From Thermoplasmata archaeon (GTDB lineage: Archaea > Thermoplasmatota > Thermoplasmata > Thermoplasmatales > GCA-001856825), in NCBI GenBank assembly GCA_021817415.1, contig JAKAUZ010000084.1:17221-81220 (forward strand): a stretch of DNA of 64,000 nucleotides, written 5' to 3'. Shown here one piece after another: positions 1-16,486 of the stretch. Numbering within the stretch: the first letter of the stretch is position 1; the number at the start of each line of letters is the position of its first letter. The translations under genes were made by a program, and so were the position numbers. The notes under the pieces were generated by a model. It searched no databases. It saw only the letters and a list, made by a program, of their open reading frames with translations, and was not told where the DNA came from.

Positions 1-667
1 TGAAGAGTTCATATTTGTATCCTGCATCTTTACAATTTTCACTTTCTACGTTATATAATGGAAAAATCTTTAGTCCTGAATGATAGTCTATGAAATTCAA
101 TAGATAGAATTCATAAAGAAAATCTCTCATTATATAGAAACTGACAGTACTCATTGGGAACCCCTTCTCCTCTAGGAAAAATCTGACTTTGGAATCCTTC
201 GATCTATCCATGAGATTTCTTGGGATTTCAAGTTCGCCTGTACTGTAAAGCTGCTTTAAAAATTTAAAATAAGTTTCATTCTGTGAGTTAAGAAGCAATT
301 CAACAAACTTTAATGGACCTCTGACCTCATCTTTCTTCCACATTGCGGATAACTCTCTGGCCAAATCTGTTATCACATACCCATTGTTGTCCTTAATCGC
401 AAGTCTAGTTAGTCTAAATACCCGCAAGAATTGTTCTGCTTTCGTCAAGAAGGGCGGTCTCTTTGAACTGTCAAATGATTTCAATCTACCAGATCCCAGA
501 ACCCTAAAAGTGTTGGAAAGTCGGTTCTGGGAAGTCTTGATGAGAACTTGTCTTACATCTTCGATGTCGAAATGATCCTTTCTGAAACTGAGTTCATTCA
601 ACACCGCATGAACTTCGTGTCGGTATCTAACAGGTCTAATGCTAGTCCATCTGTCGAGTCCATTCAC
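1..667 (-). CDS. hypothetical protein, 5' portion only (gene runs off the left edge); co-directional partner immediately downstream of the SIR2 gene
   Basis: Own translation of the minus strand. The frame is open from 682 down to base 1, giving 222 complete codons from a GTG at 667-665, which lies 5 nt after the SIR2 stop. No ATG is present near the 5' end. The protein begins VNGLDRWTSIRPVRYRHEVHAVLNELSFRKDHFDIEDVRQVLIKTSQNRL and reads ...ESENCKDAGYKYELF at the window edge. It is absent from the ORF track because it is open-ended. I see no nameable motif and no Walker A. Confidence 0.5.
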   Translation of the reverse strand, partial: MNGLDRWTSIRPVRYRHEVHAVLNELSFRKDHFDIEDVRQVLIKTSQNRLSNTFRVLGSGRLKSFDSSKRPPFLTKAEQFLRVFRLTRLAIKDNNGYVITDLARELSAMWKKDEVRGPLKFVELLLNSQNETYFKFLKQLYSTGELEIPRNLMDRSKDSKVRFFLEEKGFPMSTVSFYIMRDFLYEFYLLNFIDYHSGLKIFPLYNVESENCKDAGYKYELF

Positions 668-671
668 TATT

Positions 672-1904
672 CTAATGTAACTTCACCCCAAAGTATTCTG
701 CTGCATCCGATTTTATTGGTTTTATTGCTTTGACAAGATTGGGATACTCTGACAAATTTCTTCTTACATTGTTTACTGCATTTCTATCGATGTAAATTAT
801 CTCGTACTCTCCTGGATCCGATGATATTGCATCATTAAGTACTTGACTTATCCACTTATCCCTGAATGAATAACCAATGACGTAACATTTTTTTTGCTCC
901 TTAAATCTCTTCTTTAGCAAGCTCAGCAATTCAAAATGTGGGTCGGATACGACATTTTTTGAAAGCCCCATAACTAGTACTCTTGACCTAACTTTGCTAT
1001 CGGGCCTAGATTCAATTATTTCGTTAGCTTCTTCAGTTTTCAGATAGGTCCCATTTTCAAGTTGTACGAGGTCTACAGATCCGTGTAGTTTATAGAGGAA
1101 AATACTTCCCCTTTCAGAGTGTTCGTAATTATCAAAATTTAATGTAATCCGGTCGTTTATTGTCTCATTGTAAAATTGAACTATATCTTGATTTATCGAG
1201 TCGCCAAACAGTTCTATAATATTGTCGTAATTGGTTGTAAAAAGATGAATATTGGATTCAATTCTTTTTGGATTACGCCTCTTCCATCCAGCATCCCCGG
1301 TTATCTTATGGAATAATTCCCCATATAACTTTATCACGTTTCTTCGAACCGTTGGCGCTTGAGTGTAAAAAGTGGAAAGCAAATATTCATGGTATTCGGT
1401 TATCAAATTATAAGCAATTTTGCTCTGACGCAGTCTAAATTTTCGCTGAGCTATTTTGGACAGCATCACGGCAGTGAATACATTGTTGTCCGCTGCATAA
1501 TATTTCGGTTTTGAGAAACCCTGGAAACAAGAGTACAAGGATTCAGAATCTAGTCTCCATCTACTTAGCTTTAGAAGCTTAATGAGTGAATTAATTTTTC
1601 TAATTTCTTTCTTACGTGTCTTACCATCGCTTATCGCCCTTTTGAGATATAGTTGGAAAGATTTAACAATTTCGACACTGGTAGGTAACCCAAAAAGCGA
1701 AGAAACTCCAGCTCCTATAAGCAACAAATGTCCAGTTTTTTCAGTCGTCAATGTCTTATCAGACGGAGGAGATATAAATGTCTTTCCATGTTTTAGGTAA
1801 CCCTTCGAAATATGGGTCCAATAAATAAAAGAGAGACTTGCAACTACTGTCTCGTATATTTTAGGTAAGATAGGTTTGTGTCTTCTCATGTACCACAAGT
1901 GCAT
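672..1904 (-). CDS. SIR2_2-family (sirtuin-like, predicted NAD+-consuming) defence-type protein, stand-alone domain
   Basis: 410-aa ORF carrying the SIR2_2 motif series in order: GHLLLIGAGVSSLFGLPT (codons around 1715-1701), LFTTNYDNIIE, LYKLHGSVD, VIGYSFRDKW. No extra recognisable domain is present. The start could be M1 (1904) or M6 (1889). Confidence 0.75.
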   Translation of the reverse strand: MHLWYMRRHKPILPKIYETVVASLSFIYWTHISKGYLKHGKTFISPPSDKTLTTEKTGHLLLIGAGVSSLFGLPTSVEIVKSFQLYLKRAISDGKTRKKEIRKINSLIKLLKLSRWRLDSESLYSCFQGFSKPKYYAADNNVFTAVMLSKIAQRKFRLRQSKIAYNLITEYHEYLLSTFYTQAPTVRRNVIKLYGELFHKITGDAGWKRRNPKRIESNIHLFTTNYDNIIELFGDSINQDIVQFYNETINDRITLNFDNYEHSERGSIFLYKLHGSVDLVQLENGTYLKTEEANEIIESRPDSKVRSRVLVMGLSKNVVSDPHFELLSLLKKRFKEQKKCYVIGYSFRDKWISQVLNDAISSDPGEYEIIYIDRNAVNNVRRNLSEYPNLVKAIKPIKSDAAEYFGVKLH

Positions 1905-1955
1905 GAATATGCACTAAAAGTATTTATTTATGCACATTATTGCACTTTGGTGCTA
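1900..1955. promoter_or_regulatory. divergent promoter region with helically phased TGCAC repeats flanking an AT-rich TATA-like element
   Basis: TGCAT at 1900, TGCAC at 1910, 1931 and 1941, and TGCTA at 1951, giving spacings of 10, 21, 10 and 10 nt. They flank AAAAGTATTTATTTA (1916-1930). The region lies between the SIR2 start (1904, minus) and the small ORF/methyltransferase operon (plus). Confidence 0.4.
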
Positions 1956-2125
1956 TGAATATACAGTTTTTCAATGTGAGCGAAGTTATTGAAATGAAAG
2001 TCGGTGAAGGGGGTAGGATCACTGGACTGAAAAAGTATGAGGGATCAATAATTAAGATAGTAGTATTTGACACAACTAAGAATGATGTACAAGAAGAAAC
2101 TAGTAAAAGGAGCGGTCAATATTGA
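1955..2125 (+). CDS. small hypothetical protein (56 aa from the ATG at 1955), translationally coupled to the methyltransferase; possible controller protein
   Basis: The ORF track gives 1940-2125 from a TTG; in-frame ATGs lie at 1955 and 1994. Its TGA stop (2123-2125) overlaps the TTG start (2122) of the next gene. The segment MKVGEGGRITGLKKYEGSIIKIVVF weakly recalls SpoVT/AbrB-type swapped-hairpin regulators, at very low certainty. Confidence 0.3.
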   Translation: MNIQFFNVSEVIEMKVGEGGRITGLKKYEGSIIKIVVFDTTKNDVQEETSKRSGQY

Positions 2126-4281
2126 AAAACCTAAGTCCTTCAATCAAACGAGCTTCTAAAGGGTCCGAGATAGATCCAGAAAGAGGCAAGAAGTTGATAG
2201 AAGTAGGTTTGCCCATTGGAAAAATAAGTTCTTTAGCTGAAAAGGAAGCAAACGGTAGAAAGACAATTTATAGAATTCATAAGTGGTGGGCAAGGCGACT
2301 TGGAACTGTTTTTCGAAGTTTGTTAATTGGAGCTTTTATGCATTCATTCACAACACCTGGACAATTCATTGATACATTCAATTCAGAGAGGAGGATTGGC
2401 GAGGGCAAGATTGTACTTGACTCTTTTCTTGGTGGAGGCACGACAGCAGTTGAAGCGCTTAGACTGGGTTCGAAGGTTATTGGAATTGACATTAATCCTG
2501 TGTCTTGGTTTATATCAAAGAAAGAAGTGGAGCCAATAAAACTTAACTTGATGAAGAAGGAATTCGAGATACTTAAGAAAACGGTAGGAAACGAAATATT
2601 GGAACTGTACTCAACAAAGTGCACTAAAGGGCACGAGGCTAAGATTGTTTATGCTCTTTGGAATTACAAAGCAACGTGTTCTTCTTGTAAAAGAGAATCA
2701 GATCTCTTCAGAGATCATATTGTACTAGAAAAAAGGAGCAGTCAAGGAGAAGTAGAGTTTGTTCTTCACTGTGAGTATTGCGGGAATATATTCTCTTCAC
2801 ACTCTAGAGGGATTCAAAAGTGTCCTAAATGCAACATGCAAATCAATGCACGTTTAGGTAATACGCGGAATGGAATATTCAAGTGTATATGTGGTTCCGA
2901 AAGGCGGATTGTGGACATGGTTAAGGAAAACGGGGGACCTTTGGAACGAGCGATGTTCGCAATAGAATATGATTGCCCTAAATGTGGAAGAGGGTTCAAG
3001 GCACCGAGTAGGTCAGATTTGGAGAAGTTCCTAGGGATCAAAAGAAGATTCGAAATCTCAAAAGATTCGCTGTTATATCCTAAGGAAGGCGTCAAGACAA
3101 GCGAAAGCGACAAAAGGCCTGTAAATCACGGATACAAATATTTCTACCAACTTTTCAATGAGCGACAGTTGTTAAGTCTCTCTCTTCTTCTAAATGGAAT
3201 CATGCAGGTTCGAGATCTCTCAACCCGCGAGTTCCTTTTATTGGCATTCTCCGCGAGCCTTGAAACTAACAACCTACTATGTAAGTACGAAACAAAGTGG
3301 GACAAGATTTCGGCGACATTTGCGATTCCCGCGTATCATCCAACGGAGAGAATAGCAGAAAACAATGTTTGGGGAGGCCGATACGGAAGAGGAACTTTTG
3401 TTAAAAGCTACAGAAAGATATTGCTTGCAAAAGGGGTGGGGCTTAAAGGTACCATGGATGAAAAAGTTAAGTATATTCCTGTCAACTCTCCATATCGTTT
3501 CACAAAATTAGCACACTCATATATCAAACTAAAGGCGAATGATTCCGATGTTCTCTTGAAATGCGCTGATTCCGAGAAAATGACCTTTCTCCCCAATGAA
3601 AGCGTAGACCTGGTTTTGACCGATCCACCTTATTTTGATAATTTTACATATTCTAGACTTTCTGACTTTTTTTATGTGTGGCTCAAAATACCATTGTCAA
3701 CAGTCTACCCAAGGTTTTTTGGAAAACCAACCTCAATGCGCAGACAGGAGATTGTTCTAGATCGAAAAACAGGAAAGAGTCTTAACAATGTCGTGAAATC
3801 GTTGTCTAGAGTCTTCTCAGAATGCAATAGGGTTATGAGAAAAGATGGTTTGCTGGTATTCACTTTTCACCACAATCAGCTATGGGCATGGGAGGGTTTG
3901 TACGACTCTGTCAAGACCTCTGGATTTACAATTGTTAATACAATTTACATCAGATCAGAGAGTATTACGGGTTATAGGAAAGCAGGGAAAATAAGTTACG
4001 ATGCCTGCATTGTTTGTAAGAAGGGAGTACAAGAGCCTAGCAGAGCCGACTTGTCCGCAGCAAGAAGATCTTCAAAACTATGGGTCCGAAAATTGGTCAA
4101 GGCAGGAAATGGCTTGCATGATGCTGATGTCAGAAGTATAGTGATGGGCGAGATTGCCAGATTCAATCCTTCTCTATTGAGTGACAAAAGCAAGGAGAAT
4201 AAACTCAATACTTTAACAAATGAATGCATCCAGTTGCGGGATAAACTTAAAAGTGACAATACGGACAAGACAGAAAACTAG
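2122..4281 (+). CDS. DUF1156/COG1743-type DNA methyltransferase with internal Zn-ribbons (N6-adenine or N4-cytosine class, DPPY motif)
   Basis: 719 aa. The N-terminal DUF1156-like signature is IHKWWARRLG (WWARR encoded at 2284-2298). SAM motif I is VLDSFLGGGTTAVEALRLG (from 2419). Three CxxC pairs lie in between: CSSC..CEYC, CPKC..CICG and CPKCG. Catalytic motif IV is LVLTDPPYF (DPPY at 3622-3633). An AGGAG at 2108-2112 sits 9 nt upstream of the TTG start. Confidence 0.8.
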   Translation: MKNLSPSIKRASKGSEIDPERGKKLIEVGLPIGKISSLAEKEANGRKTIYRIHKWWARRLGTVFRSLLIGAFMHSFTTPGQFIDTFNSERRIGEGKIVLDSFLGGGTTAVEALRLGSKVIGIDINPVSWFISKKEVEPIKLNLMKKEFEILKKTVGNEILELYSTKCTKGHEAKIVYALWNYKATCSSCKRESDLFRDHIVLEKRSSQGEVEFVLHCEYCGNIFSSHSRGIQKCPKCNMQINARLGNTRNGIFKCICGSERRIVDMVKENGGPLERAMFAIEYDCPKCGRGFKAPSRSDLEKFLGIKRRFEISKDSLLYPKEGVKTSESDKRPVNHGYKYFYQLFNERQLLSLSLLLNGIMQVRDLSTREFLLLAFSASLETNNLLCKYETKWDKISATFAIPAYHPTERIAENNVWGGRYGRGTFVKSYRKILLAKGVGLKGTMDEKVKYIPVNSPYRFTKLAHSYIKLKANDSDVLLKCADSEKMTFLPNESVDLVLTDPPYFDNFTYSRLSDFFYVWLKIPLSTVYPRFFGKPTSMRRQEIVLDRKTGKSLNNVVKSLSRVFSECNRVMRKDGLLVFTFHHNQLWAWEGLYDSVKTSGFTIVNTIYIRSESITGYRKAGKISYDACIVCKKGVQEPSRADLSAARRSSKLWVRKLVKAGNGLHDADVRSIVMGEIARFNPSLLSDKSKENKLNTLTNECIQLRDKLKSDNTDKTEN

Positions 4282-4448
4282 TTGAAGAACGAACCTAGAA
4301 TATTCTTACTCACTTAGACAAGTAATAGCCGGACTTTCTATAATTTATCCTTGACCAACTAACTTTTGTGTTGTTTCACTCACTTTCCGTTTGAGTATAT
4401 CTTAAGATGCGACTTCCATCAGAGCAGAAACATTTAATAAAGCTAAAC

Positions 4449-4460
4449 ATATTTTTATTC
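4449..4460 (+). promoter_or_regulatory. possible internal archaeal TATA box for a leaderless ParB-like/SNF2/DUF3883 transcript
   Basis: ATATTTTTATTC is centred about 27 nt upstream of the ATG at 4481. It lies in the 180-nt gap after the methyltransferase gene. Confidence 0.3.
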
Positions 4461-4480
4461 ATTTGGAGTCTGGTAAAATC

Positions 4481-5776
4481 ATGGCAATGACCAACAAGTT
4501 GTCAAAGGAAATTGAAGCGTATATAGAAACACATAAGGAAAGTAAACTGGAAAGGATCATTCCAGTAGAACTATCTGGAAAAAGGGAGGACCTCCAAGTC
4601 TATAGAATCCCTATAAACCTTTTAAGGTATAACATAAGAAATGGAAGATTTGCCGCTGAGTATCGTGACTTTGTGAGTAAGAAAGGCAGGGAACTTGATC
4701 CAAACAAAAAGAGCGATGCCCTTGAAATCAGAAAATTACTTCTAAATATCAAACCAGAGGCCACTCGAGTTTTGGAAGACGATCTTAAAAGGATAGGTCA
4801 ATTAGATCCAGGAGTTATGACTTTCGATGGATTTGTTGTCAATGGAAATAGAAGAATGGCAGTTTTTGAGCGACTGCAAGAACAAACGGGTGAGTCCAGA
4901 TGGTCCTTCTTGGAAATGGCAATACTTCCAAAAGCTGTCACTGAGCAAGATTTGTGGAGAATAGAAGCTAATCTTCAATTCTCCAAGGATGAAAGGTTGG
5001 AATATGGCCCGATTAATCAACTCTTAAAATTTAGAGATGGCATAAAAGCTGGCCTGACCACGAAACAAATCGCAGCAAGTATGTACGGGGACTTCTCTGA
5101 GAAAGACATAAAGACTGATTTAGAGCGACTTGAACTAATAGAAACATATCTGGAGTACATTGGAAAAAAGGGAAACTACAAAGCCGCTGAACGTATACAT
5201 GAACACTTTATTGACATTCAAAAAGTTTTGGCAAAACAAAAAAAGAATGGCACTGATCCGCTTGAGCTTCAAAAAATACTTCATTTTGCATTTGACATGA
5301 TAAAGGCTGGATCAACTCACTGGGACATTCGGCAACTTAACAATATCATAAAAGAGCCAATTGCGAAAACCCGTCTTTTGAATGGAATCGAGCAAATAGA
5401 AACAACCAGTCCTATTCAAATGAAAGAGGGGCCTAGTGATGCTGAGTTGATCAAAAATAAACCCGACGAACACCTTAACCAATATACCACAGAGAACAGC
5501 GGAGCTAAAGAACCAGAGGAAGAACAACCTAATGAATTAGAATCTGCCTCGGGCGCAGACGAGAATCCTGTTATTACATTGTTTGAAGAAAGTTCAGAAA
5601 CCGCACTTGCATCTCAGCTGAAGAACAAACCTATTAAGCTACTGACAACTGCTTTGACGAATCTGCAAAGTGTTGAAATTGATAGCCCTGCTCTGTTAGA
5701 GCAGAAGGCTCGAGACTTGATAAATGAAATAGCGTTTATAGTTCAAAAACTGAAAGTCCTTGCAGAAAATAGATAG
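4481..5776 (+). CDS. ParB/sulfiredoxin-fold (ParB N-terminal domain-like) protein with an acidic linker
   Basis: The ORF track start is a TTG at 4463; the in-frame ATG at 4481 is preferred. YRIPINLLRYNIRNGRF is followed by DGFVVNGNRRMAVFERL (NGNRR encoded at 4841-4855), which resembles the ParB-box arginine motif. An acidic low-complexity stretch, KEPEEEQPNELESASGADENP, lies near the C-terminal third. Confidence 0.55.
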   Translation: MAMTNKLSKEIEAYIETHKESKLERIIPVELSGKREDLQVYRIPINLLRYNIRNGRFAAEYRDFVSKKGRELDPNKKSDALEIRKLLLNIKPEATRVLEDDLKRIGQLDPGVMTFDGFVVNGNRRMAVFERLQEQTGESRWSFLEMAILPKAVTEQDLWRIEANLQFSKDERLEYGPINQLLKFRDGIKAGLTTKQIAASMYGDFSEKDIKTDLERLELIETYLEYIGKKGNYKAAERIHEHFIDIQKVLAKQKKNGTDPLELQKILHFAFDMIKAGSTHWDIRQLNNIIKEPIAKTRLLNGIEQIETTSPIQMKEGPSDAELIKNKPDEHLNQYTTENSGAKEPEEEQPNELESASGADENPVITLFEESSETALASQLKNKPIKLLTTALTNLQSVEIDSPALLEQKARDLINEIAFIVQKLKVLAENR

Positions 5777-5787
5777 GGCGATCAAGG

Positions 5788-7698
5788 TTGATTGAAATAG
5801 CAATGAAAGATGGGAAGCTAGAAATTTCCTTTCCAGAGAATCCGGAGCTTTATGAACAAATTGATTCGAGACTGACATTTATTTCCGTGCTTGGATTCGA
5901 ATACAATTCACTTGATCGCAAATTTGTTATGGAAAATATAAGTGACCTAGTTGGCCTTGTGTCTGCGGTTAGAACCTCGATTAGATATTTTGAAAGCGGT
6001 AGACTTCCATATGAATTCGACTCTAATATTGAGCGTATTATTCAGGCTGCTCAGGATTCCGACACGCAAATGATTAACTCGATAAATCGATGGAACGAAC
6101 TTAATGACTCTAATACGAGTCAAATCAGTGTCCCTGGCTTCGTCAGATCTCTCTTCCCTTATCAAATTAGAGGAGTATTGCATGGGCTAGGAGTGGACCA
6201 CCCTGCAAATTTCTCCGTCCCAGGGAGCGGTAAGACAACAATAGCTTATGCAATTTATTCGATTCTAAGAGCTCGAGGAGTCCTTGACAGGATGGTAGTA
6301 GTGGGGCCTAGCAGTTCTTTTATGCCGTGGGAGGATGAGTATGAAGCATGTTTCGGGAAAGGACCGGTCTCGTTGAGAGTGAGCGGAGACAAGGTTGATA
6401 CCTTAGAAGAAGATTTTGATAGAAGCGACCTAGTGCTCCTCACTTACCAGATGGCAAGCAGAATTACCCCAGAACTCATTCATTTGATGTCAAGATCAAA
6501 TACCTTTCTCATTCTTGATGAATCCCATAATATCAAGAGGTTCAGTGGCGGTCTTTGGTCAAGTTCTCTGCTGAAAGTGGCACCCTATGCAAGAAAGAGG
6601 ATGATTCTAACTGGAACTCCTATGCCAAATGATTATTTCGATTTGTGGAGTCAGTTCACTTTTTTGTGGCCCTTTAGAAATCTGCTCAAAGGTTCATCGG
6701 AGTACAAGACACTGGCTAAATCTAAAGACGGTAGGGAGAGAATAAAAGATATTGTAAGACCCTTTTATAACCGAATTAATAAGAGAGACCTAAATCTTCC
6801 CTCGCCAGAATTTAAAGTCATACGTGTGCCGATGGGCAAAGTTCAACAAAGAATTTATAAAGCTATCGCTGCGAAAACCCTTGCAGATCTAGCAAATCCT
6901 CCAAAGGAAAGGCAGATTCTAAGAGACTGGCGTAAATACAGAATTGTCAGGCTTCTCCAAGTAGCAACAAATCCCACTCTTTTGACAAAATATTCTGAGG
7001 AGTTTAGTGTTCCCCCGCTTTTTTCAGACAATCTGCCCATCTCATCCCTGATTCAACAATACCCAGAATACGAGATACCTTCTAAGATGGTCGAGACAGC
7101 AAAAATGACACGTGAGATCATGGACGGGGGTCAAAAAGTGTTGATTTGGACCGCTTTCATTCATAACATTAAGATGTTGCAGGGAATGCTTTCTGAGAGA
7201 AATCCGCTTATAATTTACGGTGGAATTCCAAAAGACGAAAGAGAAGACCAGGTGTTTAATAGAGAAAATATAATACGCGAGTTCAAAAATGACCCAAATC
7301 CTAGAGTCCTCATAGCAAACCCAAGTTCACTATCAGAATCTGTATCTTTACAAAAAGTCTGCATGAATGCAATATACCTTGATAGAACATTCAATGCGGG
7401 CCAATATATTCAGTCACTTGACAGAATTCATAGAATAGGTTTGGCACCGACAGATGTGGTCAAATACTATATATTGATAGCCGCCAACAGTGTGGACGAG
7501 GCAGTGCATTCAAGACTCAACCTGAAATTCAGTCGCCTACTTGAACTGCTAAACGATGAACTACCAATGGTCGATCTCGGTTCGGATCCTAGTCTTGTCA
7601 GTGAGGTAAGTGATCAGGAATTTGAAAAAGACTTCGAAGCTGTTTGTCGGCATTTGACCGATCTTCGTGACGTTGAGATGAATGCCTCCAAAAATTGA
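5788..7698 (+). CDS. SNF2-family (SF2) ATPase/translocase
   Basis: Motifs in order: LFPYQIRGV; Walker A VPGSGKTT (6220-6240); DExH box LILDESHN (DESH at 6517-6528); LTGTPMPN; helicase-C region KVLIWTAF; and motif VI QSLDRIHRIGL. The gene begins 12 nt after the previous gene. Confidence 0.85.
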   Translation: MIEIAMKDGKLEISFPENPELYEQIDSRLTFISVLGFEYNSLDRKFVMENISDLVGLVSAVRTSIRYFESGRLPYEFDSNIERIIQAAQDSDTQMINSINRWNELNDSNTSQISVPGFVRSLFPYQIRGVLHGLGVDHPANFSVPGSGKTTIAYAIYSILRARGVLDRMVVVGPSSSFMPWEDEYEACFGKGPVSLRVSGDKVDTLEEDFDRSDLVLLTYQMASRITPELIHLMSRSNTFLILDESHNIKRFSGGLWSSSLLKVAPYARKRMILTGTPMPNDYFDLWSQFTFLWPFRNLLKGSSEYKTLAKSKDGRERIKDIVRPFYNRINKRDLNLPSPEFKVIRVPMGKVQQRIYKAIAAKTLADLANPPKERQILRDWRKYRIVRLLQVATNPTLLTKYSEEFSVPPLFSDNLPISSLIQQYPEYEIPSKMVETAKMTREIMDGGQKVLIWTAFIHNIKMLQGMLSERNPLIIYGGIPKDEREDQVFNRENIIREFKNDPNPRVLIANPSSLSESVSLQKVCMNAIYLDRTFNAGQYIQSLDRIHRIGLAPTDVVKYYILIAANSVDEAVHSRLNLKFSRLLELLNDELPMVDLGSDPSLVSEVSDQEFEKDFEAVCRHLTDLRDVEMNASKN

Positions 7699-8659
7699 AG
7701 AGTTTAAAAGAGTTACTCATGCAGTTTCAATTTTAACAGGAGAGAGTCCGCCTGATAAAGAATACGTTATTGCTTATTGTCGTGAACAGGTTATAGGGGG
7801 CATATTTCCGAATCATGCTAAGAACATAGCTGTTTGCATTGAGTTGGGACTTATCGGTGAAAATGACAATCTCTTATTTTTAACTGAAAGTGGCACAGAG
7901 TTTCTTAGCCTGGGTAATCCTGACGAATATGAACTCAGTAACAGACAAAAAAAATTTCTTATTGACAAATGCTTCCTAACTGGTGCTGTTGCGGACAGAA
8001 CCAGACATATAATGCTCCAACTTTCTCCATCCTACACTGAGAACACATTCGTTTGGAACAAGTTAGATAGTACCCCTCTTGTTTGCGACCAAGAAGTCCT
8101 GGACATGCTTATCCAGTTGGGAATGTTGATGGAAGATGAAAATGGGCTTCATCTTGAAAGAGCTTATGTTAATGAGGTTAGAACGATAAGACAACAATCT
8201 CAACCCAAGACTTCAGAAGAACTCGCCAAGGAATTGGAAACCGACAAAAAAATAGGAGAAGCTGCAGAGTTGATTGCTCTCGAATTTGAGAAAAGGCGCC
8301 TTAGTGAGATTGGATGTGAATTCGAAGCAAGACTAGTCCAAAGGATAAGTGAACTAGATGTTGGAGCTGGTTTTGACATAATATCTTTTGACAAGCAGAG
8401 TACAAATCTTGTACCAGATCGATTTATAGAAGTTAAAGGATCTCGCGGTAATACCGTAAGATTCTACTGGACGAGGAACGAAATTGAAAAAGCGAAGGTA
8501 CTCCGTCAAAGATATTGGATATATTTTATAGGTGGTATAGAGGAGTATGACAAATCTCACTACAATGCTCCAATTCTCATACAGGATCCTTTTTTGAACA
8601 CGTTGACAAACGGCGACTACGATACTAAATGTGAAGTAATCTCTGTGTTAAAAAATTAA
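7682..8659 (+). CDS. DUF3883-domain protein (restriction-endonuclease-like fold) with an N-terminal wHTH-like region
   Basis: The C-terminal region reads AAELIALEFEKRRLSEIG...GAGFDIISFD...RFIEVKGSRG (IEVKG at 8426-8440)...FYWTRNEIEKAKVLRQRYWIYFI. This matches the DUF3883 pattern (GxDI-S ... IEVK ... NE...A ... Y-ly-V). It overlaps the SNF2 stop by 17 nt. Confidence 0.65.
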   Translation: MPPKIEEFKRVTHAVSILTGESPPDKEYVIAYCREQVIGGIFPNHAKNIAVCIELGLIGENDNLLFLTESGTEFLSLGNPDEYELSNRQKKFLIDKCFLTGAVADRTRHIMLQLSPSYTENTFVWNKLDSTPLVCDQEVLDMLIQLGMLMEDENGLHLERAYVNEVRTIRQQSQPKTSEELAKELETDKKIGEAAELIALEFEKRRLSEIGCEFEARLVQRISELDVGAGFDIISFDKQSTNLVPDRFIEVKGSRGNTVRFYWTRNEIEKAKVLRQRYWIYFIGGIEEYDKSHYNAPILIQDPFLNTLTNGDYDTKCEVISVLKN

Positions 8660-9462
8660 CCAATGTTCGACACAAGGTTTCCGTTCTAATATTGAACTAT
8701 ACGTAGCGCAATAATAATTATGAGAAATAGATCGTTTGTTTATATAGCTGCAATTCATCCCGTCTTTCAGATTCCATAGGGACTGAATTATAACAATGGA
8801 ATTTAACTCTGTACTTTAATTTATCATTTTGTACTTTTTTACACAATTAAAATACAAAGCCGCTCAAACATCAACTTCACATTATTTACGTAATATATCC
8901 AGTTCTATGGGGGTGCATTCCAATCTTCTGACGTATCCATTTCTGCAACGTCCGAATTCGTAAAGTATTACACCCTATCAAATGGAGAAATATGTAAGTA
9001 CATCAGGCTGATTGGATACTGATGGATGGCAGGAAGAAGAGGATTGTAAAGATAACGTCAACATTCGCGGCTTTGGAAGCTGTCTTCCTCCACTATGAGA
9101 TAAATGGCACTTGTCTTTATGGGTAGCTTGAGATTACTCTTCATTTATTTACTTGGGGGGCGATACCTATGCAGGGCGTTGTTTCCACAAGCTTGGTCTC
9201 TACTCTATCCCCTCATGAAGGACGTATCCTAGCTCTCCCCTAGGACCTCAGATTGATTGCATGAAAATACAACCTATTGTAGGAAAGCTCATCGACATTT
9301 TCCAAATAGTCCAGGAATTGCTCTATCTTCTTCTCAGCTTCATTGCCCAATTTTGAACTCTTTAGACTTTCTAGTTCAAGCTCGTAATACTTTTTAGTCC
9401 CTACCTTAAGATCTTCTTTCGCAACTAGTTATTGCATACACGGATCTGAACCATCTGGTGAA

Positions 9463-9564
9463 TCCCGGCTGCCGGATTTGAACCAGCGACCTGTGGATGG
9501 CGGCGGTCGCGCCGAAACGCTGTCCCTCTACAGTCCACCGCTCTACCAACTGAGCTAAGCCGGG
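9463..9564 (-). tRNA. tRNA-Tyr(GUA) with a 29-nt intron at the canonical 37/38 position
   Basis: Hand-folded cloverleaf. The acceptor stem is CCCGGCT/AGCCGGG (the C1:G72 pair typical of archaeal tRNA-Tyr). The D arm is GCTC-AGTTGGTA-GAGC. The anticodon stem is GTGGA/TCCAC with loop CT-GTA-G[intron 9527-9499]A. The T arm is GCTGG-TTCAAAT-CCGGC and the discriminator is A. CCA is not encoded. Confidence 0.85.
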
Positions 9565-9702
9565 TAATACTGTATTAGTATTCCTAAAAATATTTTTCCA
9601 TACGAGCCAAAATGCATTGACAGGATTGCGTAACTTTTAGAAAATTCAATTATGACAATATTAATGTACTCGTTGTTTATATGTTTATAAAGGTGACAAT
9701 AA

Positions 9703-15859: not shown

Positions 15860-15981
15860 TATCCATGGTATTAGGATGCTTATTTTATCTTTTTGAATTC
15901 TCCTGACGTTTAATTGTCAAGTGATTTATCAGGAGAGTACGGAATATTTATCTAATTGGGGTTAATTCATGGCGTAAAATC

Positions 15982-16054
15982 GCAGGTGTTGTGTAGCCTG
16001 GTAGCACAAAGGCCTTCCAAGCCTTTAGCCCGGGTTCAAATCCCGGCACCTGCA
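15982..16054 (+). tRNA. tRNA-Gly(UCC)
   Basis: Hand-folded, 73 nt. The acceptor stem is GCAGGTG/CACCTGC. The anticodon stem is AAGGC/GCCTT with loop CT-TCC-AA. The T arm is CCGGG-TTCAAAT-CCCGG. ORF-track ORF 15956-16327 reads through this tRNA and is not a real single CDS. Confidence 0.9.
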
Positions 16055-16084
16055 TCAAGGAACTTTGTTTCTGAAGTCAGGGAT

Positions 16085-16486
16085 ATGGATAAACAACTGA
16101 TAGATAAGCAGCTGAAGAGTGTATTTGTATCTGAAAACAAGGATGATGCCCTCCAGAGACTAAAGGAATTCAAATCTGAGTGTATAGAGAGCTATCCGAG
16201 GCAGACATACAGTCTTGAGAAGAAGGTGAACTACCTGCTCACCTACTTCCAATACCCTCATGCCATAAGGAGATCAATACACTCCAACAGCATCATTGAA
16301 AGAATGAACAAGGAAGTGAGAAGATGAACAAATGTGATAGATTCCCTTCCTACCGAGAATTCAGCACTTAAGATCGTTTATCTGAGGATGAATCGACTAA
16401 AAGAGAAGATATCTCACAGAGTCCCTAACGGATATTTCAAATGCAGGGATGACTTGAGAGAAACGTTCAGCGCGAGGTATCCGTGA
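16085..16486 (+). pseudogene. IS256/Mutator-family transposase, C-terminal fragment with an in-frame stop
   Basis: ...SYPRQTYSLEKKVNYLLTYFQYPHAIRRSIHSNSIIERMNKEVRR then TGA (16325-16327) then TNVIDSLPTENSALKIVYLRMNRLKEK... This matches the conserved C-terminal end of IS256-type transposases (..ERxNxExRRRxxVxxxFPxxxSxxRLxxL..). The catalytic N-terminal two thirds are absent. Confidence 0.7.

What the first reader, a model, noticed from the sequence alone, without database searches (positions are those of the whole stretch)
2122..8659. Candidate undescribed methylation-linked defence operon: Zn-ribbon DUF1156 methyltransferase + ParB/Srx-fold protein + SNF2 ATPase + DUF3883 nuclease-like protein
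**Seen in sequence.** Four co-directional ORFs are tightly packed, with gaps of 180 nt and 12 nt and a 17-nt overlap.
- Gene 1 has WWARR (2284-2298), FLGGG motif I (from 2419), three CxxC Zn-ribbon pairs and DPPY (3622-3633).
- Gene 2 has a ParB-box-like NGNRR (4841-4855).
- Gene 3 has the full SNF2 motif set (GSGKT at 6220-6240, DESH at 6517-6528, QSLDRIHRIG).
- Gene 4 ends in a DUF3883-type core (GFDIISFD...IEVKG at 8426-8440...NEIEKA...YWIYFI).

**Established knowledge.**
- DPPY methyltransferases make m6A or m4C.
- As I recall the comparative-genomics literature, COG1743/DUF1156 methylases are enriched in defence islands, typically alongside a DUF499 ATPase.
- SNF2 ATPases partner with methylases in DISARM.
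- DUF3883 is a restriction-endonuclease-like fold.

**Inference.** This gene set lacks the hallmarks of every system I can name. There is no HsdR/HsdS, no Res, no PglZ/BrxC/BrxL, no DrmA/DrmB(DUF1998)/PLD, and no DUF499. It therefore looks like a distinct self/non-self system. The methylase would mark the host genome, and an SNF2 translocase plus ParB-like module would deliver or license the DUF3883 nuclease.
Basis: partly seen in the sequence, partly recalled or inferred. Interest (0 to 1): 0.86.

Follow-up and report, generated by a model that had tools for sequence, protein, structure and literature searches.

The report
Methylase-linked ParB–SNF2–nuclease defence operon
Four adjacent archaeal genes (a DNA methylase, a ParB-like protein, an SNF2 motor and a nuclease with its own DNA-reading domain) form a cassette conserved in archaea and bacteria that most likely works as a restriction-modification-like defence, and it appears to be an unnamed relative of the poorly understood lactococcal AbiR system.

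Summary
**Observation.** It is confirmed. The four ORFs, their spacing and every quoted motif are present. Three domain calls pass Pfam: DUF1156/N6_N4 methylase, SNF2, and NOV_C/DUF3883.

**Gene 2.** It hits no Pfam, PADLOC, NCBIfam or PHROGs model. Its AlphaFold model matches Spo0J, ParB and KorB, and its family aligns with plasmid proteins annotated as ParB (hhalign probability 99.5%).

**Conservation.**
- ParB-like–SNF2–NOV_C is an ordered core in about 25 independent loci from archaea and bacteria.
- Most complete loci have an adjacent methylase, drawn from four unrelated classes.
- Neighbours are often defence genes.

**Gene 4.** It has two fast-evolving winged helices resembling type IIS recognition domains (BpuJI), followed by an invariant D…ExK nuclease core.

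**Reading.** The most likely function is a restriction-modification-like system. It is not Hma, BREX, DISARM or Zorya.

The ParB-like/SNF2 pair is homologous to pairs on Firmicute plasmids. Those pairs have the architecture a 2026 review describes for lactococcal AbiR: ParB-like plus nuclease–Snf2, methylase-dependent, and toxic without the methylase.

**Verdict.** This is a new variant of a known but mechanistically unexplained kind, not a wholly new one. Function is inferred, not tested.

The parts
2122..4281 (+). Gene 1: DNA methyltransferase, 719 aa. Layout: N-terminal DUF1156 helical domain (aa 30-89), SAM motif I FLGGG (nt 2425-2439), a Cys-rich double Zn-ribbon insert that is probably the target-recognition region (aa 186-257, nt 2677-2892), and catalytic DPPY (nt 3622-3633).
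   Evidence: Pfam N6_N4_Mtase 4.4e-16 and DUF1156 28.3 bits against a cut-off of 24. PADLOC PglXI 1.2e-27, HmaB 7.7e-27, DUF1156_MTase 3e-22. NCBIfam DUF1156_antiphage scores only 109 bits against a cut-off of 1000. PHROG methyltransferase 3.9e-106. The Cys pairs, GGGT and DPPY are conserved in the nine aligned sequences (the window's protein plus eight orthologues).
4463..5776 (+). Gene 2: ParB-like protein, 437 aa as the ORF is listed; the probable start is the ATG at 4481, giving 431 aa. Layout: ParB/Srx-type N-domain, helical/HTH middle domain, disordered linker (aa 317-365), C-terminal helical domain. Invariant motifs are YNIRNGRFAAE (nt 4631-4660) and GQxDPG…NGNRR (nt 4796-4855).
   Evidence: No hit in Pfam, PADLOC, NCBIfam or PHROGs. 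AlphaFold model pLDDT 83. Foldseek PDB top hits are Spo0J 1vz0 (E 1.4e-4), M. xanthus ParB-CDP, KorB, pNOB8 ParB and sulfiredoxin. Invariant residues are listed. tblastn finds annotated ParB proteins at E 4e-21. hhalign probability 99.5%, E 3e-23. The family has 2010 representatives at 50% identity.
5788..7698 (+). Gene 3: SNF2-family ATPase/translocase, 636 aa. Q-motif region, Walker A GSGKT (nt 6223-6237), DESH (nt 6517-6528), TGTP (nt 6610-6621), motif VI QSLDRIHRIG (nt 7411-7440). The N-terminal ~115 aa are poorly conserved.
   Evidence: Pfam SNF2-rel_dom 1.3e-18, ResIII, Helicase_C. Best PADLOC hits are ZorD 6.4e-28, then DpdE, HmaA and DrmD. All ATPase motifs are >=90% conserved in 27 orthologues. 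BLASTP 3e-45 to the SNF2 part of the L. plantarum plasmid PLD-SNF2 protein.
7682..8659 (+). Gene 4: nuclease with its own DNA-reading module, 325 aa. Two N-terminal winged-helix domains (aa ~1-175), a long helix, then the NOV_C/DUF3883 PD-(D/E)xK core. Catalytic D232 lies within nt 8369-8392 and E250-x-K252 within nt 8426-8440. The gene overlaps gene 3 by 17 nt.
   Evidence: Pfam NOV_C 6e-15. PADLOC PDC-S36, TmtA and PD-T4-1, nuclease part only. AlphaFold pLDDT 88. Foldseek top hits are the BpuJI type IIS recognition domain (E 3e-3, probability 1.0), PaqCI and FokI. D232, E250 and K252 are invariant in 24 homologues. Mean pairwise identity is 23% in the N-terminal part and 44% in the nuclease.

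Best explanation
**What it is.** A four-component, NTP-dependent, restriction-modification-like defence system, carried in a low-GC stretch next to a tRNA gene in an archaeal genome.

**Proposed steps.**
1. Gene 1, a DUF1156-type DPPY methylase, marks host DNA at a sequence read by its Zn-ribbon insert.
2. Gene 4 reads the same kind of site on unmethylated DNA through its variable tandem winged-helix module, and cuts with its PD-(D/E)xK (NOV_C) domain.
3. Gene 3, an SNF2 ATPase, moves along double-stranded DNA to couple recognition to cleavage. It either brings the nuclease to its target or signals between sites.
4. Gene 2 has the full ParB domain layout. It acts as a nucleotide-gated DNA clamp or sensor that loads on the target DNA and licenses or recruits the SNF2-nuclease pair.

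**Shown here.**
- The folds and domain assignments.
- Intact, conserved catalytic motifs.
- The invariant gene order ParB-like–SNF2–NOV_C.
- Exchange of the methylase among unrelated classes.
- Defence-island and mobile-element contexts.
- Homology of genes 2 and 3 to plasmid pairs with the architecture described for AbiR.

**Inferred, not shown.**
- That methylation protects the host.
- That gene 4 is methyl-sensitive.
- That the three core proteins form a complex.
- That gene 2 binds or hydrolyses a nucleotide.
For: 1. **Conserved core.** The core is conserved and ordered in every locus with enough flanking sequence and intact genes, except L018. These loci come from Thaumarchaeota, methanogens, Thermoplasmata, Verrucomicrobia, Acidobacteria, Elusimicrobia, Gammaproteobacteria and Chloroflexota. 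Genes often overlap or are separated by only a few bases.
2. **Methylase exchange.** Most complete loci have an adjacent methylase; L010, L016 and L021 show none. The methylases are of unrelated types: the long gene-1 type; a short beta-class type with SPPY; a Dam-like type; and C5-Dcm in the Streptococcus prophage Javan191, which has the same core. The SNF2 tree shows a few type switches and cross-domain transfers.
3. **Catalytic residues.** They are conserved in the methylase, the SNF2 ATPase and the nuclease.
4. **Gene 4 N-terminus.** It resembles type IIS recognition domains and evolves about twice as fast as the nuclease part. This is expected of a specificity module.
5. **Gene 2.** It has the ParB fold and layout, with invariant residues at the GxxRR-type motif.
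6. **Context.** A SIR2 operon lies next door in the window. Other loci carry type I, type II and type IIG R-M genes, a GajB-like gene, toxin-antitoxin genes and Tn7-like cargo. Two loci hold decayed copies.
7. **Precedent.** AbiR combines ParB-like, nuclease-Snf2 and DNA-binding proteins, needs a methylase and is toxic without it (PMC13064643). In Hma, the SNF2-NOV_C nuclease alone protects against phage T4 (PMC11232893).
Against: - There is no experiment on this cassette.
- Gene 2 fails Pfam ParBc. A profile-versus-B. subtilis Spo0J comparison was not significant, so nucleotide binding is a structural inference only.
- A few loci show no methylase inside the operon (L002, L010, L016, L021). 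In L001 and L002 the nearby methylase belongs to an ordinary type II pair.
- The methylase type mostly tracks the clades of the SNF2 tree, so exchange was occasional rather than frequent.
- The direct link to AbiR rests on a review's domain description.
- PADLOC-DB v2 dates from 2023. A newer catalogue might already name the system.
Confidence: 0.62

Rival explanations
1. It is simply a member, a reduced or split form, of the Hma system (the 'type-1 BREX-related' system). That system has a DUF1156 methylase (HmaB), an SNF2 helicase fused to a NOV_C nuclease (HmaA) and a DUF499 ATPase (HmaC).
For: Gene 1 matches PADLOC HmaB at 7.7e-27 and passes Pfam DUF1156. Gene 3 hits the helicase part of HmaA at 4.8e-13, and gene 4 hits the HmaA C-terminus at 5e-4. 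The Hma paper reports that 15-20% of HmaA loci lack HmaB or HmaC.
Against: - No DUF499/HmaC lies in the operon or among the ten largest other ORFs of the window.
- Gene 3's best matches are ZorD and DpdE, not HmaA.
- Gene 1 reaches only 109 of the 1000 bits required by the NCBIfam DUF1156_antiphage model.
- In relatives the DUF1156-type methylase is replaced by unrelated methylases, while the ParB-like gene, which Hma lacks, is always present.
- Neither the Hma paper nor the BREX-related survey describes a ParB-like component in these systems.
Confidence: 0.1
2. It is an abortive-infection or addiction-type module in the strict AbiR sense. Genes 2-4 are a toxic DNA-replication-blocking machine triggered by infection. 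The methylase serves only as an antidote against self-damage, not as a self/non-self mark that lets the system destroy incoming DNA directly.
For: AbiR was described as impeding phage DNA replication and as toxic without the LlaKR2I methylase. HmaA acts as a nickase in phage defence. ParB-family domains act as sensors in Menshen, GmrSD and SspE.
Against: A methylase that prevents toxicity is what a restriction-modification logic predicts, so the two readings overlap. Gene 4 carries a type IIS-like recognition module, which suits direct site-specific attack on unmodified DNA. Nothing in the sequence shows a phage-protein trigger.
Confidence: 0.15
3. It is a counter-defence or establishment module of a mobile element. 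ParB-like, adenine methylase and SNF2 domains are hubs of the 'polyvalent proteins' of phages and conjugative elements, as in the P1 Dar/DdrB set, which protect incoming DNA from host restriction.
For: Four of 40 family members weakly hit Pfam ddrB-ParB, best E 1e-3. Related ParB-like/helicase pairs are common on conjugative and mobilizable plasmids (72 records, 52 of them Enterococcus) and occur in a prophage. The polyvalent-protein domain network is described in PMC5512222.
Against: - Most loci here are chromosomal, with housekeeping flanks.
- A site-reading PD-(D/E)xK nuclease is an invariant member.
- There are no virion, T4SS or peptidase-processing contexts.
- Defence systems themselves often ride on plasmids, prophages and Tn7-like elements.
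Confidence: 0.06
4. It has a housekeeping role: DNA segregation, repair, or chromatin or transcription remodelling by a ParB-SNF2 pair, with an unrelated orphan methylase nearby.
For: ParB proteins normally act in partition. SNF2 proteins such as RapA act in transcription.
Against: - There is no ParA partner in these loci.
- Distribution across distant phyla is patchy and looks like horizontal transfer.
- Some loci hold decayed copies.
- A nuclease and a methylase are linked to the pair in most complete loci.
- The window's copy sits in a low-GC stretch next to a tRNA gene.
Confidence: 0.03

Closest known systems
AbiR of Lactococcus lactis plasmid pKR223 (abiRa/b/c plus the LlaKR2I methylase)
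   Same: - The parts list is the same: a ParB-like protein, an Snf2 ATPase, a nuclease and a DNA-binding helical/winged-helix protein.
- AbiR depends functionally on a DNA methylase and is toxic without it (review PMC13064643).
- The review matched AbiRii to PDB 5K5D, which is also among gene 2's Foldseek hits.
- Genes 2 and 3 are homologous to Firmicute plasmid pairs of the layout ParB-like + PLD-SNF2 beside Dcm (hhalign 99.5%; BLASTP 3e-45).
   Different: - In AbiR the nuclease is described as an N-terminal SauUSI-like (PLD-type) domain fused to the Snf2 protein. Here it is a separate PD-(D/E)xK NOV_C protein with its own winged helices.
- AbiR's third protein is described as sigma70-like.
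- The AbiR methylase belongs to a neighbouring type II system. Here a DUF1156-type methylase is in the operon.
- Homology to the AbiR proteins themselves was not tested, because no sequences were available.
Hma / type-1 BREX-related system (HmaA SNF2-NOV_C, HmaB DUF1156 methylase, HmaC DUF499 ATPase)
   Same: It shares a DUF1156-type adenine methylase, an SNF2 ATPase and a NOV_C/DUF3883 PD-(D/E)xK nuclease. Both are found in defence islands.
   Different: There is no DUF499 ATPase. The helicase and nuclease are separate and much shorter (636 + 325 aa against a PADLOC HmaA profile of 1176 positions). A ParB-like protein is present. The methylase is exchangeable with unrelated classes.
ParB-superfamily sensor systems: Menshen (NsnABC), GmrSD, SspE, DndB, DpdB
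   Same: A ParB/Srx-fold protein followed by a DNA-binding domain works with an ATPase and a nuclease in modification-related defence.
   Different: Those systems use the DUF262 or DndB branches of the superfamily, and gene 2 hits neither model. Structurally gene 2 is closest to canonical partition ParB, Spo0J and KorB. Its partner ATPase is SNF2, not an ABC ATPase.
Class 1 DISARM (DrmD SNF2 + DrmMI) and Zorya ZorD (SNF2 + Mrr-like nuclease)
   Same: An SNF2 ATPase is coupled to a methylase (DISARM) or to a PD-(D/E)xK nuclease (ZorD). ZorD is gene 3's best PADLOC match, at 6.4e-28.
   Different: No DrmA, DrmB or DrmC, and no ZorA, ZorB or ZorC, are present.
Type IIS restriction enzymes (BpuJI, FokI, PaqCI)
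   Same: Gene 4 has the same plan: winged-helix recognition subdomains followed by a PD-(D/E)xK cleavage domain.
   Different: The match is at fold level only (E ~3e-3, 11-13% identity). Gene 4 always comes with an SNF2 ATPase and a ParB-like protein, which implies NTP-dependent action.

Membership tests
Hma (PADLOC) / type-1 BREX-related | HmaC, a DUF499 ORC/Cdc6-type ATPase | tested here: not met
   No DUF499 or HmaC hit for any operon protein or for the ten largest other ORFs of the window. The upstream 367-aa AAA+ protein seen in L037 hits only an RFC-like lid domain.
Hma (PADLOC) / type-1 BREX-related | HmaA: a single SNF2 helicase with a C-terminal NOV_C nuclease | tested here: not met
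   The two functions are on separate genes. Gene 3 hits HmaA only at 4.8e-13, over profile positions 509-639. Gene 4 hits it at 5e-4. ZorD and DpdE score better for gene 3.
Hma (PADLOC) / type-1 BREX-related | HmaB: a DUF1156 methylase | tested here: inconclusive
   PADLOC HmaB 7.7e-27, and Pfam DUF1156 28.3 bits, above its cut-off of 24. NCBIfam DUF1156_antiphage reaches 109 bits against a cut-off of 1000.
AbiR (lactococcal) | ParB-like component (AbiRii/AbiRb) | tested here: met
   Gene 2 has the ParB fold, and its Foldseek hits include 5K5D. It is homologous to plasmid proteins annotated as ParB.
AbiR (lactococcal) | Snf2 ATPase with an N-terminal SauUSI-like nuclease domain on the same protein (AbiRiii/AbiRc) | tested here: not met
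   Gene 3 has no nuclease domain. The nuclease is the separate PD-(D/E)xK protein, gene 4. Firmicute relatives do carry the PLD-SNF2 fusion.
AbiR (lactococcal) | Dependence on a DNA methylase; toxicity without it | not testable with these tools
   Only adjacency can be shown. A methylase lies next to the core in most complete loci; L010, L016 and L021 show none.
AbiR (lactococcal) | Sequence homology to AbiRa, AbiRb and AbiRc themselves | not tested
   The original papers and sequences are not held. No hit carried the name AbiR.
ParB/Srx superfamily (gene 2) | ParB/Srx N-domain fold with a GxxRR-type arginine motif, followed by an HTH DNA-binding domain | tested here: met
   Foldseek: Spo0J TM-score 0.60 over ~220 columns, probability 1.0. 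N129, R130 and R131 are invariant. hhalign 99.5% to an annotated ParB. Pfam ParBc itself does not hit.
ParB/Srx superfamily (gene 2) | CTP or other NTP binding and hydrolysis; clamp closure | not testable with these tools
   This needs biochemistry. The only evidence is motif positions, and the profile-versus-Spo0J alignment is not significant.
NOV_C / DUF3883 PD-(D/E)xK nucleases (gene 4) | Pfam PF13020 above its gathering score, with the D…ExK catalytic triad | tested here: met
   55.5 bits against a cut-off of 22.1. D232, E250 and K252 are invariant.
BREX | PglZ and BrxC | tested here: not met
   Neither is found. The only BREX-related hit is gene 1 to the type-3 methylase PglXI, at 1.2e-27.
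DISARM | DrmA helicase plus DrmB (DUF1998), with or without DrmC (PLD) | tested here: not met
   Gene 3 gives only weak DrmD and DrmA helicase-core hits. There is no DUF1998 and no PLD.
Type I / type III restriction-modification | HsdS and HsdR, or Res | tested here: not met
   No such proteins are present. The ResIII Pfam hit on gene 3 is the generic helicase N-domain.
Menshen | NsnA ParB-DUF262 plus NsnB ABC ATPase | tested here: not met
   Gene 2 gives no DUF262 or NsnA hit, and there is no ABC ATPase in the operon.

The most novel reading that the evidence does not exclude
Gene 2 is a true ParB-type, nucleotide-gated (possibly CTP-gated) DNA clamp used for immunity. It would load on unmethylated or incoming DNA, slide along it, and license an SNF2 motor and a site-reading nuclease. 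The archaeal cassette, the Streptococcus prophage cassette, the Firmicute plasmid ParB/PLD-SNF2 pairs and lactococcal AbiR would then form one cross-domain superfamily of 'ParB-switch' restriction systems. Its central protein family has about 2000 clusters at 50% identity and has no Pfam model.
Probability: 0.3. Interest if true: 0.85.

Novelty: new variant of a known kind. Interest (0 to 1): 0.66.

Why it matters
- It would add a widespread, cross-domain defence cassette to the short list of methylation-based systems that are not classical R-M, alongside BREX, DISARM, Hma and MADS. It is frequent in ammonia-oxidising and methanogenic archaea, whose immune repertoire is poorly charted.
- It would give AbiR a family and a testable mechanism. 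AbiR was found in 2000 and is still unexplained.
- It would define a large ParB-like protein family that no Pfam or PADLOC model covers.
- It would test whether the ParB nucleotide-switch principle, known from chromosome segregation, has been reused to tell self DNA from foreign DNA.

Tried and rejected
- **Pfam ParBc on gene 2.** No hit even at E<=10. A profile of 40 homologues against all PDB sequences also gave no hit.
- **Profile against B. subtilis Spo0J.** The result was not significant (hhalign probability 0.6%, E 0.1), although GNRR aligned on GERR. It is not used as evidence.
- **Attachment-site repeat.** I looked for a repeat of the tRNA 3' end to delimit an integrated island. Only short chance repeats were found in 1-9700.
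- **Naming the system from the literature.** Five full-text searches found no description of this four-gene set. The Dnd and BREX-related surveys do not contain it.
- **Linking to AbiR by sequence.** The original papers are not held, and no hit was named AbiR among 1277 homologues of the plasmid PLD-SNF2 protein.
- **Upstream SIR2 operon as part of the system.** Rejected, because it is absent from the related loci inspected.
- **Frequent methylase shuffling.** Only partly borne out. Methylase type largely follows the SNF2 clades, with a few switches.

Full report
**1. The observation**

The region holds four co-directional ORFs: 2122-4281, 4463-5776, 5788-7698 and 7682-8659. The gaps are 181 nt and 11 nt, and the last two genes overlap by 17 nt.

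Identical genes are called on several public archaeal contigs, for example GCA_027369235.1. There gene 2 starts at the ATG at 4481 (431 aa) and gene 3 is called as 631 aa.

The flanks are archaeal housekeeping genes: SepF, H+-pyrophosphatase, a pterin-binding enzyme and MCM. An intron-containing tRNA lies at 9463-9564 on the minus strand, just past gene 4. The first 10 kb have a lower G+C (0.36-0.41) than most of the rest of the window (mostly 0.42-0.50).

**2. What each protein is**

Gene 1 is a DNA methylase.
- Pfam gives N6_N4_Mtase at 4e-16, and DUF1156 at 28.3 bits against a cut-off of 24.
- The best PADLOC matches are the type-3 BREX methylase PglXI, HmaB and DUF1156_MTase.
- It reaches only 109 of the 1000 bits needed for NCBI's DUF1156_antiphage equivalog.
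- Motif I, the Cys pairs of a double Zn ribbon and DPPY are conserved across the nine aligned sequences (the window's protein plus eight orthologues).

Gene 3 is an SNF2 ATPase. All motifs are conserved in 27 orthologues. Its best PADLOC match is ZorD.

Gene 4 is a nuclease with its own DNA-reading module.
- It passes Pfam NOV_C/DUF3883, and D232, E250 and K252 are invariant.
- Its AlphaFold model (pLDDT 88) shows two N-terminal winged helices ahead of the nuclease.
- The best PDB matches are the DNA-recognition domain of the type IIS enzyme BpuJI (E 3e-3, probability 1.0), followed by PaqCI and FokI.
- The N-terminal part averages 23% pairwise identity among orthologues. The nuclease part averages 44%.

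Gene 2 hits nothing in Pfam (even at E<=10), PADLOC, NCBIfam or PHROGs. Other evidence shows it is ParB-like.
- It has a large family: 226 hits in the word-indexed search, and 2010 representatives at 50% identity in the exhaustive search.
- The invariant motifs are YNIRNGRFAAE and GQxDPG…NGNRR.
- The model (pLDDT 83) has a ParB/Srx-type N-domain, a helical/HTH middle, a disordered linker and C-terminal helices.
- Its top Foldseek matches are all ParB relatives: Spo0J, CDP-bound M. xanthus ParB, KorB, pNOB8 ParB and sulfiredoxin.
- At sequence level, tblastn finds plasmid proteins annotated as ParB (E 4e-21). hhalign against one of them gives 99.5% probability over 336 columns.

**3. Conservation**

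Look-ups of homologue-bearing contigs, plus a scan of one genome per species, gave about 30 loci. I searched their six-frame ORFs with the four window proteins.

- ParB-like–SNF2–NOV_C is present in that order in every locus with enough flanking sequence and intact genes, except L018. L018 has the ParB-like gene and a Dam-like gene but no SNF2 or NOV_C.
- The hosts are Nitrosopumilus, Cenarchaeum, Nitrosopelagicus, Methanoperedens, Methanosarcinales, Methanoculleus, Methanoregula, Thermoplasmata, Verrucomicrobia, Terriglobales, Elusimicrobia, Gammaproteobacteria, Chloroflexota and Rhodospirillales.
- Most complete loci have an adjacent methylase; L010, L016 and L021 show none. It is of three unrelated kinds: the long gene-1 type (usually 5'), a short beta-class type with SPPY near the N-terminus, or a Dam-like type (3').
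- The Streptococcus prophage Javan191 carries the same core next to a C5 methylase.
- On an SNF2 tree, methylase type mostly follows the clades, with a few switches. Bacterial and archaeal sequences are interleaved.
- Two loci hold decayed copies. One is cargo of a Tn7-like element.
- Neighbours include type I, type II and type IIG R-M genes, a GajB-like helicase and toxin-antitoxin pairs.
- In the window the divergent neighbour is a SIR2 gene.

**4. Most likely mechanism**

The pattern is a fixed three-gene module with intact catalytic sites, plus an exchangeable methylase, spread horizontally and sitting among defence genes. This is the pattern of a restriction-modification-like system.

My reading of the roles is as follows.
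- The methylase marks self DNA.
- Gene 4 reads unmethylated sites with its fast-evolving winged helices, and cuts.
- The SNF2 ATPase supplies DNA translocation.
- The ParB-like protein, which has the whole ParB domain layout, acts as a nucleotide-gated clamp or sensor that licenses the other two.

The folds, the conservation and the contexts are shown here. Protection by methylation, methyl-sensitivity of gene 4, complex formation and nucleotide binding are inferences.

**5. Comparison with known systems**

The cassette is not Hma (the type-1 BREX-related system). It has no DUF499 ATPase, the helicase and nuclease are separate, and a ParB-like protein is present. It is also not BREX, DISARM, Zorya, Menshen or type I/III R-M.

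- On Lactiplantibacillus, Exiguobacterium, Priestia and other Firmicute plasmids, a gene 2 homologue sits directly upstream of a PLD-nuclease–SNF2 fusion of about 860 aa. The SNF2 part of that fusion matches gene 3 at 3e-45. In the two loci inspected (L040, L041) a Dcm methylase lies nearby, and L041 also carries Vsr and a type II-like nuclease.
- A 2026 review assigns lactococcal AbiR a similar layout. AbiRii is ParB-like and was matched to 5K5D. AbiRiii has a SauUSI-like nuclease followed by Snf2. AbiRi is sigma70-like. The review also recalls that AbiR needs the LlaKR2I methylase, is toxic without it, and interferes with phage DNA replication (PMC13064643).
- I could not obtain AbiR sequences or the original papers. 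Homology to AbiR itself is therefore untested, and the link is at the level of architecture plus homology to AbiR-like plasmid pairs.

**6. Novelty and verdict**

The four-gene set is a real, conserved and very probably defensive cassette. Its central protein family is unannotated. PADLOC v2 cannot call it, and I found no paper describing it.

Its logic and two of its proteins tie it to AbiR, and its methylase and nuclease domains tie it to Hma. I therefore rate it a new variant of a known kind rather than categorically new.

The most interesting open possibility is that a ParB-type nucleotide switch is used here to discriminate foreign DNA.

Noticed in passing
window 1-1904 (minus strand); continues beyond the window start, seen in L037 876-4223: A divergent operon lies upstream of gene 1. 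It holds a SIR2_2 protein (672-1904; PADLOC Aga_SIR2 3e-21), a 336-aa protein with no family hit (only partly inside the window, about 1-667), and a 367-aa AAA+ ATPase with an RFC-like lid domain. This looks like a second candidate defence system, and no PADLOC system model covers it as a set.
   Followed up: partly
window 9463-9564 (minus strand) and 8660-9460: Rfam finds a 102-nt tRNA, apparently intron-containing, which ARAGORN missed. It lies about 800 nt downstream of gene 4, after a non-coding stretch. Together with the lower G+C of 1-10 kb, this suggests the defence genes sit in an island inserted at a tRNA gene. No attachment-site repeat was found inside the window.
   Followed up: partly
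L001/L013 7761-12506, L007 7734-12389, L012 5108-16404, L016 8738-16265; also L010 and L021: A sub-variant, mostly in Thaumarchaeota, has two tandem paralogues of the ParB-like gene. L001/L013, L007, L012 and L016 also carry an extra protein of about 725-740 aa with no family hit apart from a weak C-terminal Zn-ribbon match. L010 and L021 have the duplication but no such protein was seen. Its role is unknown.
   Followed up: partly
L043 (Lactococcus lactis plasmid pIBB109_AgSa_3) 3008-11714: A ParB-like protein and an SNF2-type helicase, homologous to genes 2 and 3, sit directly after a type III-like methylase and endonuclease pair. The ParB-SNF2 pair therefore seems to combine with different nuclease/methylase modules.
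   Followed up: no
plasmid hits: The ParB-like plus helicase pair occurs on 52 Enterococcus plasmid records, many of them conjugative or mobilizable. I did not examine what it does there.
   Followed up: no
P0025, P0027, P0038, P0051, P0052: Some gene 2 homologues carry an N-terminal Mrr_N winged-helix domain (PF14338), a domain otherwise found on Mrr-type restriction enzymes.
   Followed up: no
L032 4759-11030 and L033 7742-12138: Two archaeal genomes (a Thermoplasmata and a Methanomicrobiales MAG) hold the same four-gene cassette broken into many short ORFs. These are decayed copies.
   Followed up: partly
L030 (Chloroflexota MAG) and L031 (Nitrosopelagicus): The SNF2 proteins of these two loci are almost identical on the tree although the genomes are from different domains. 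This reflects either very recent transfer or a mis-binned contig.
   Followed up: no
window 15956-16327 (+) and 15982-16054 (+): An ORF that public gene calls annotate with Transposase_mut (PF00872) overlaps a tRNA-Gly(TCC) gene on the same strand. It is probably a transposase remnant or an over-called ORF.
   Followed up: no
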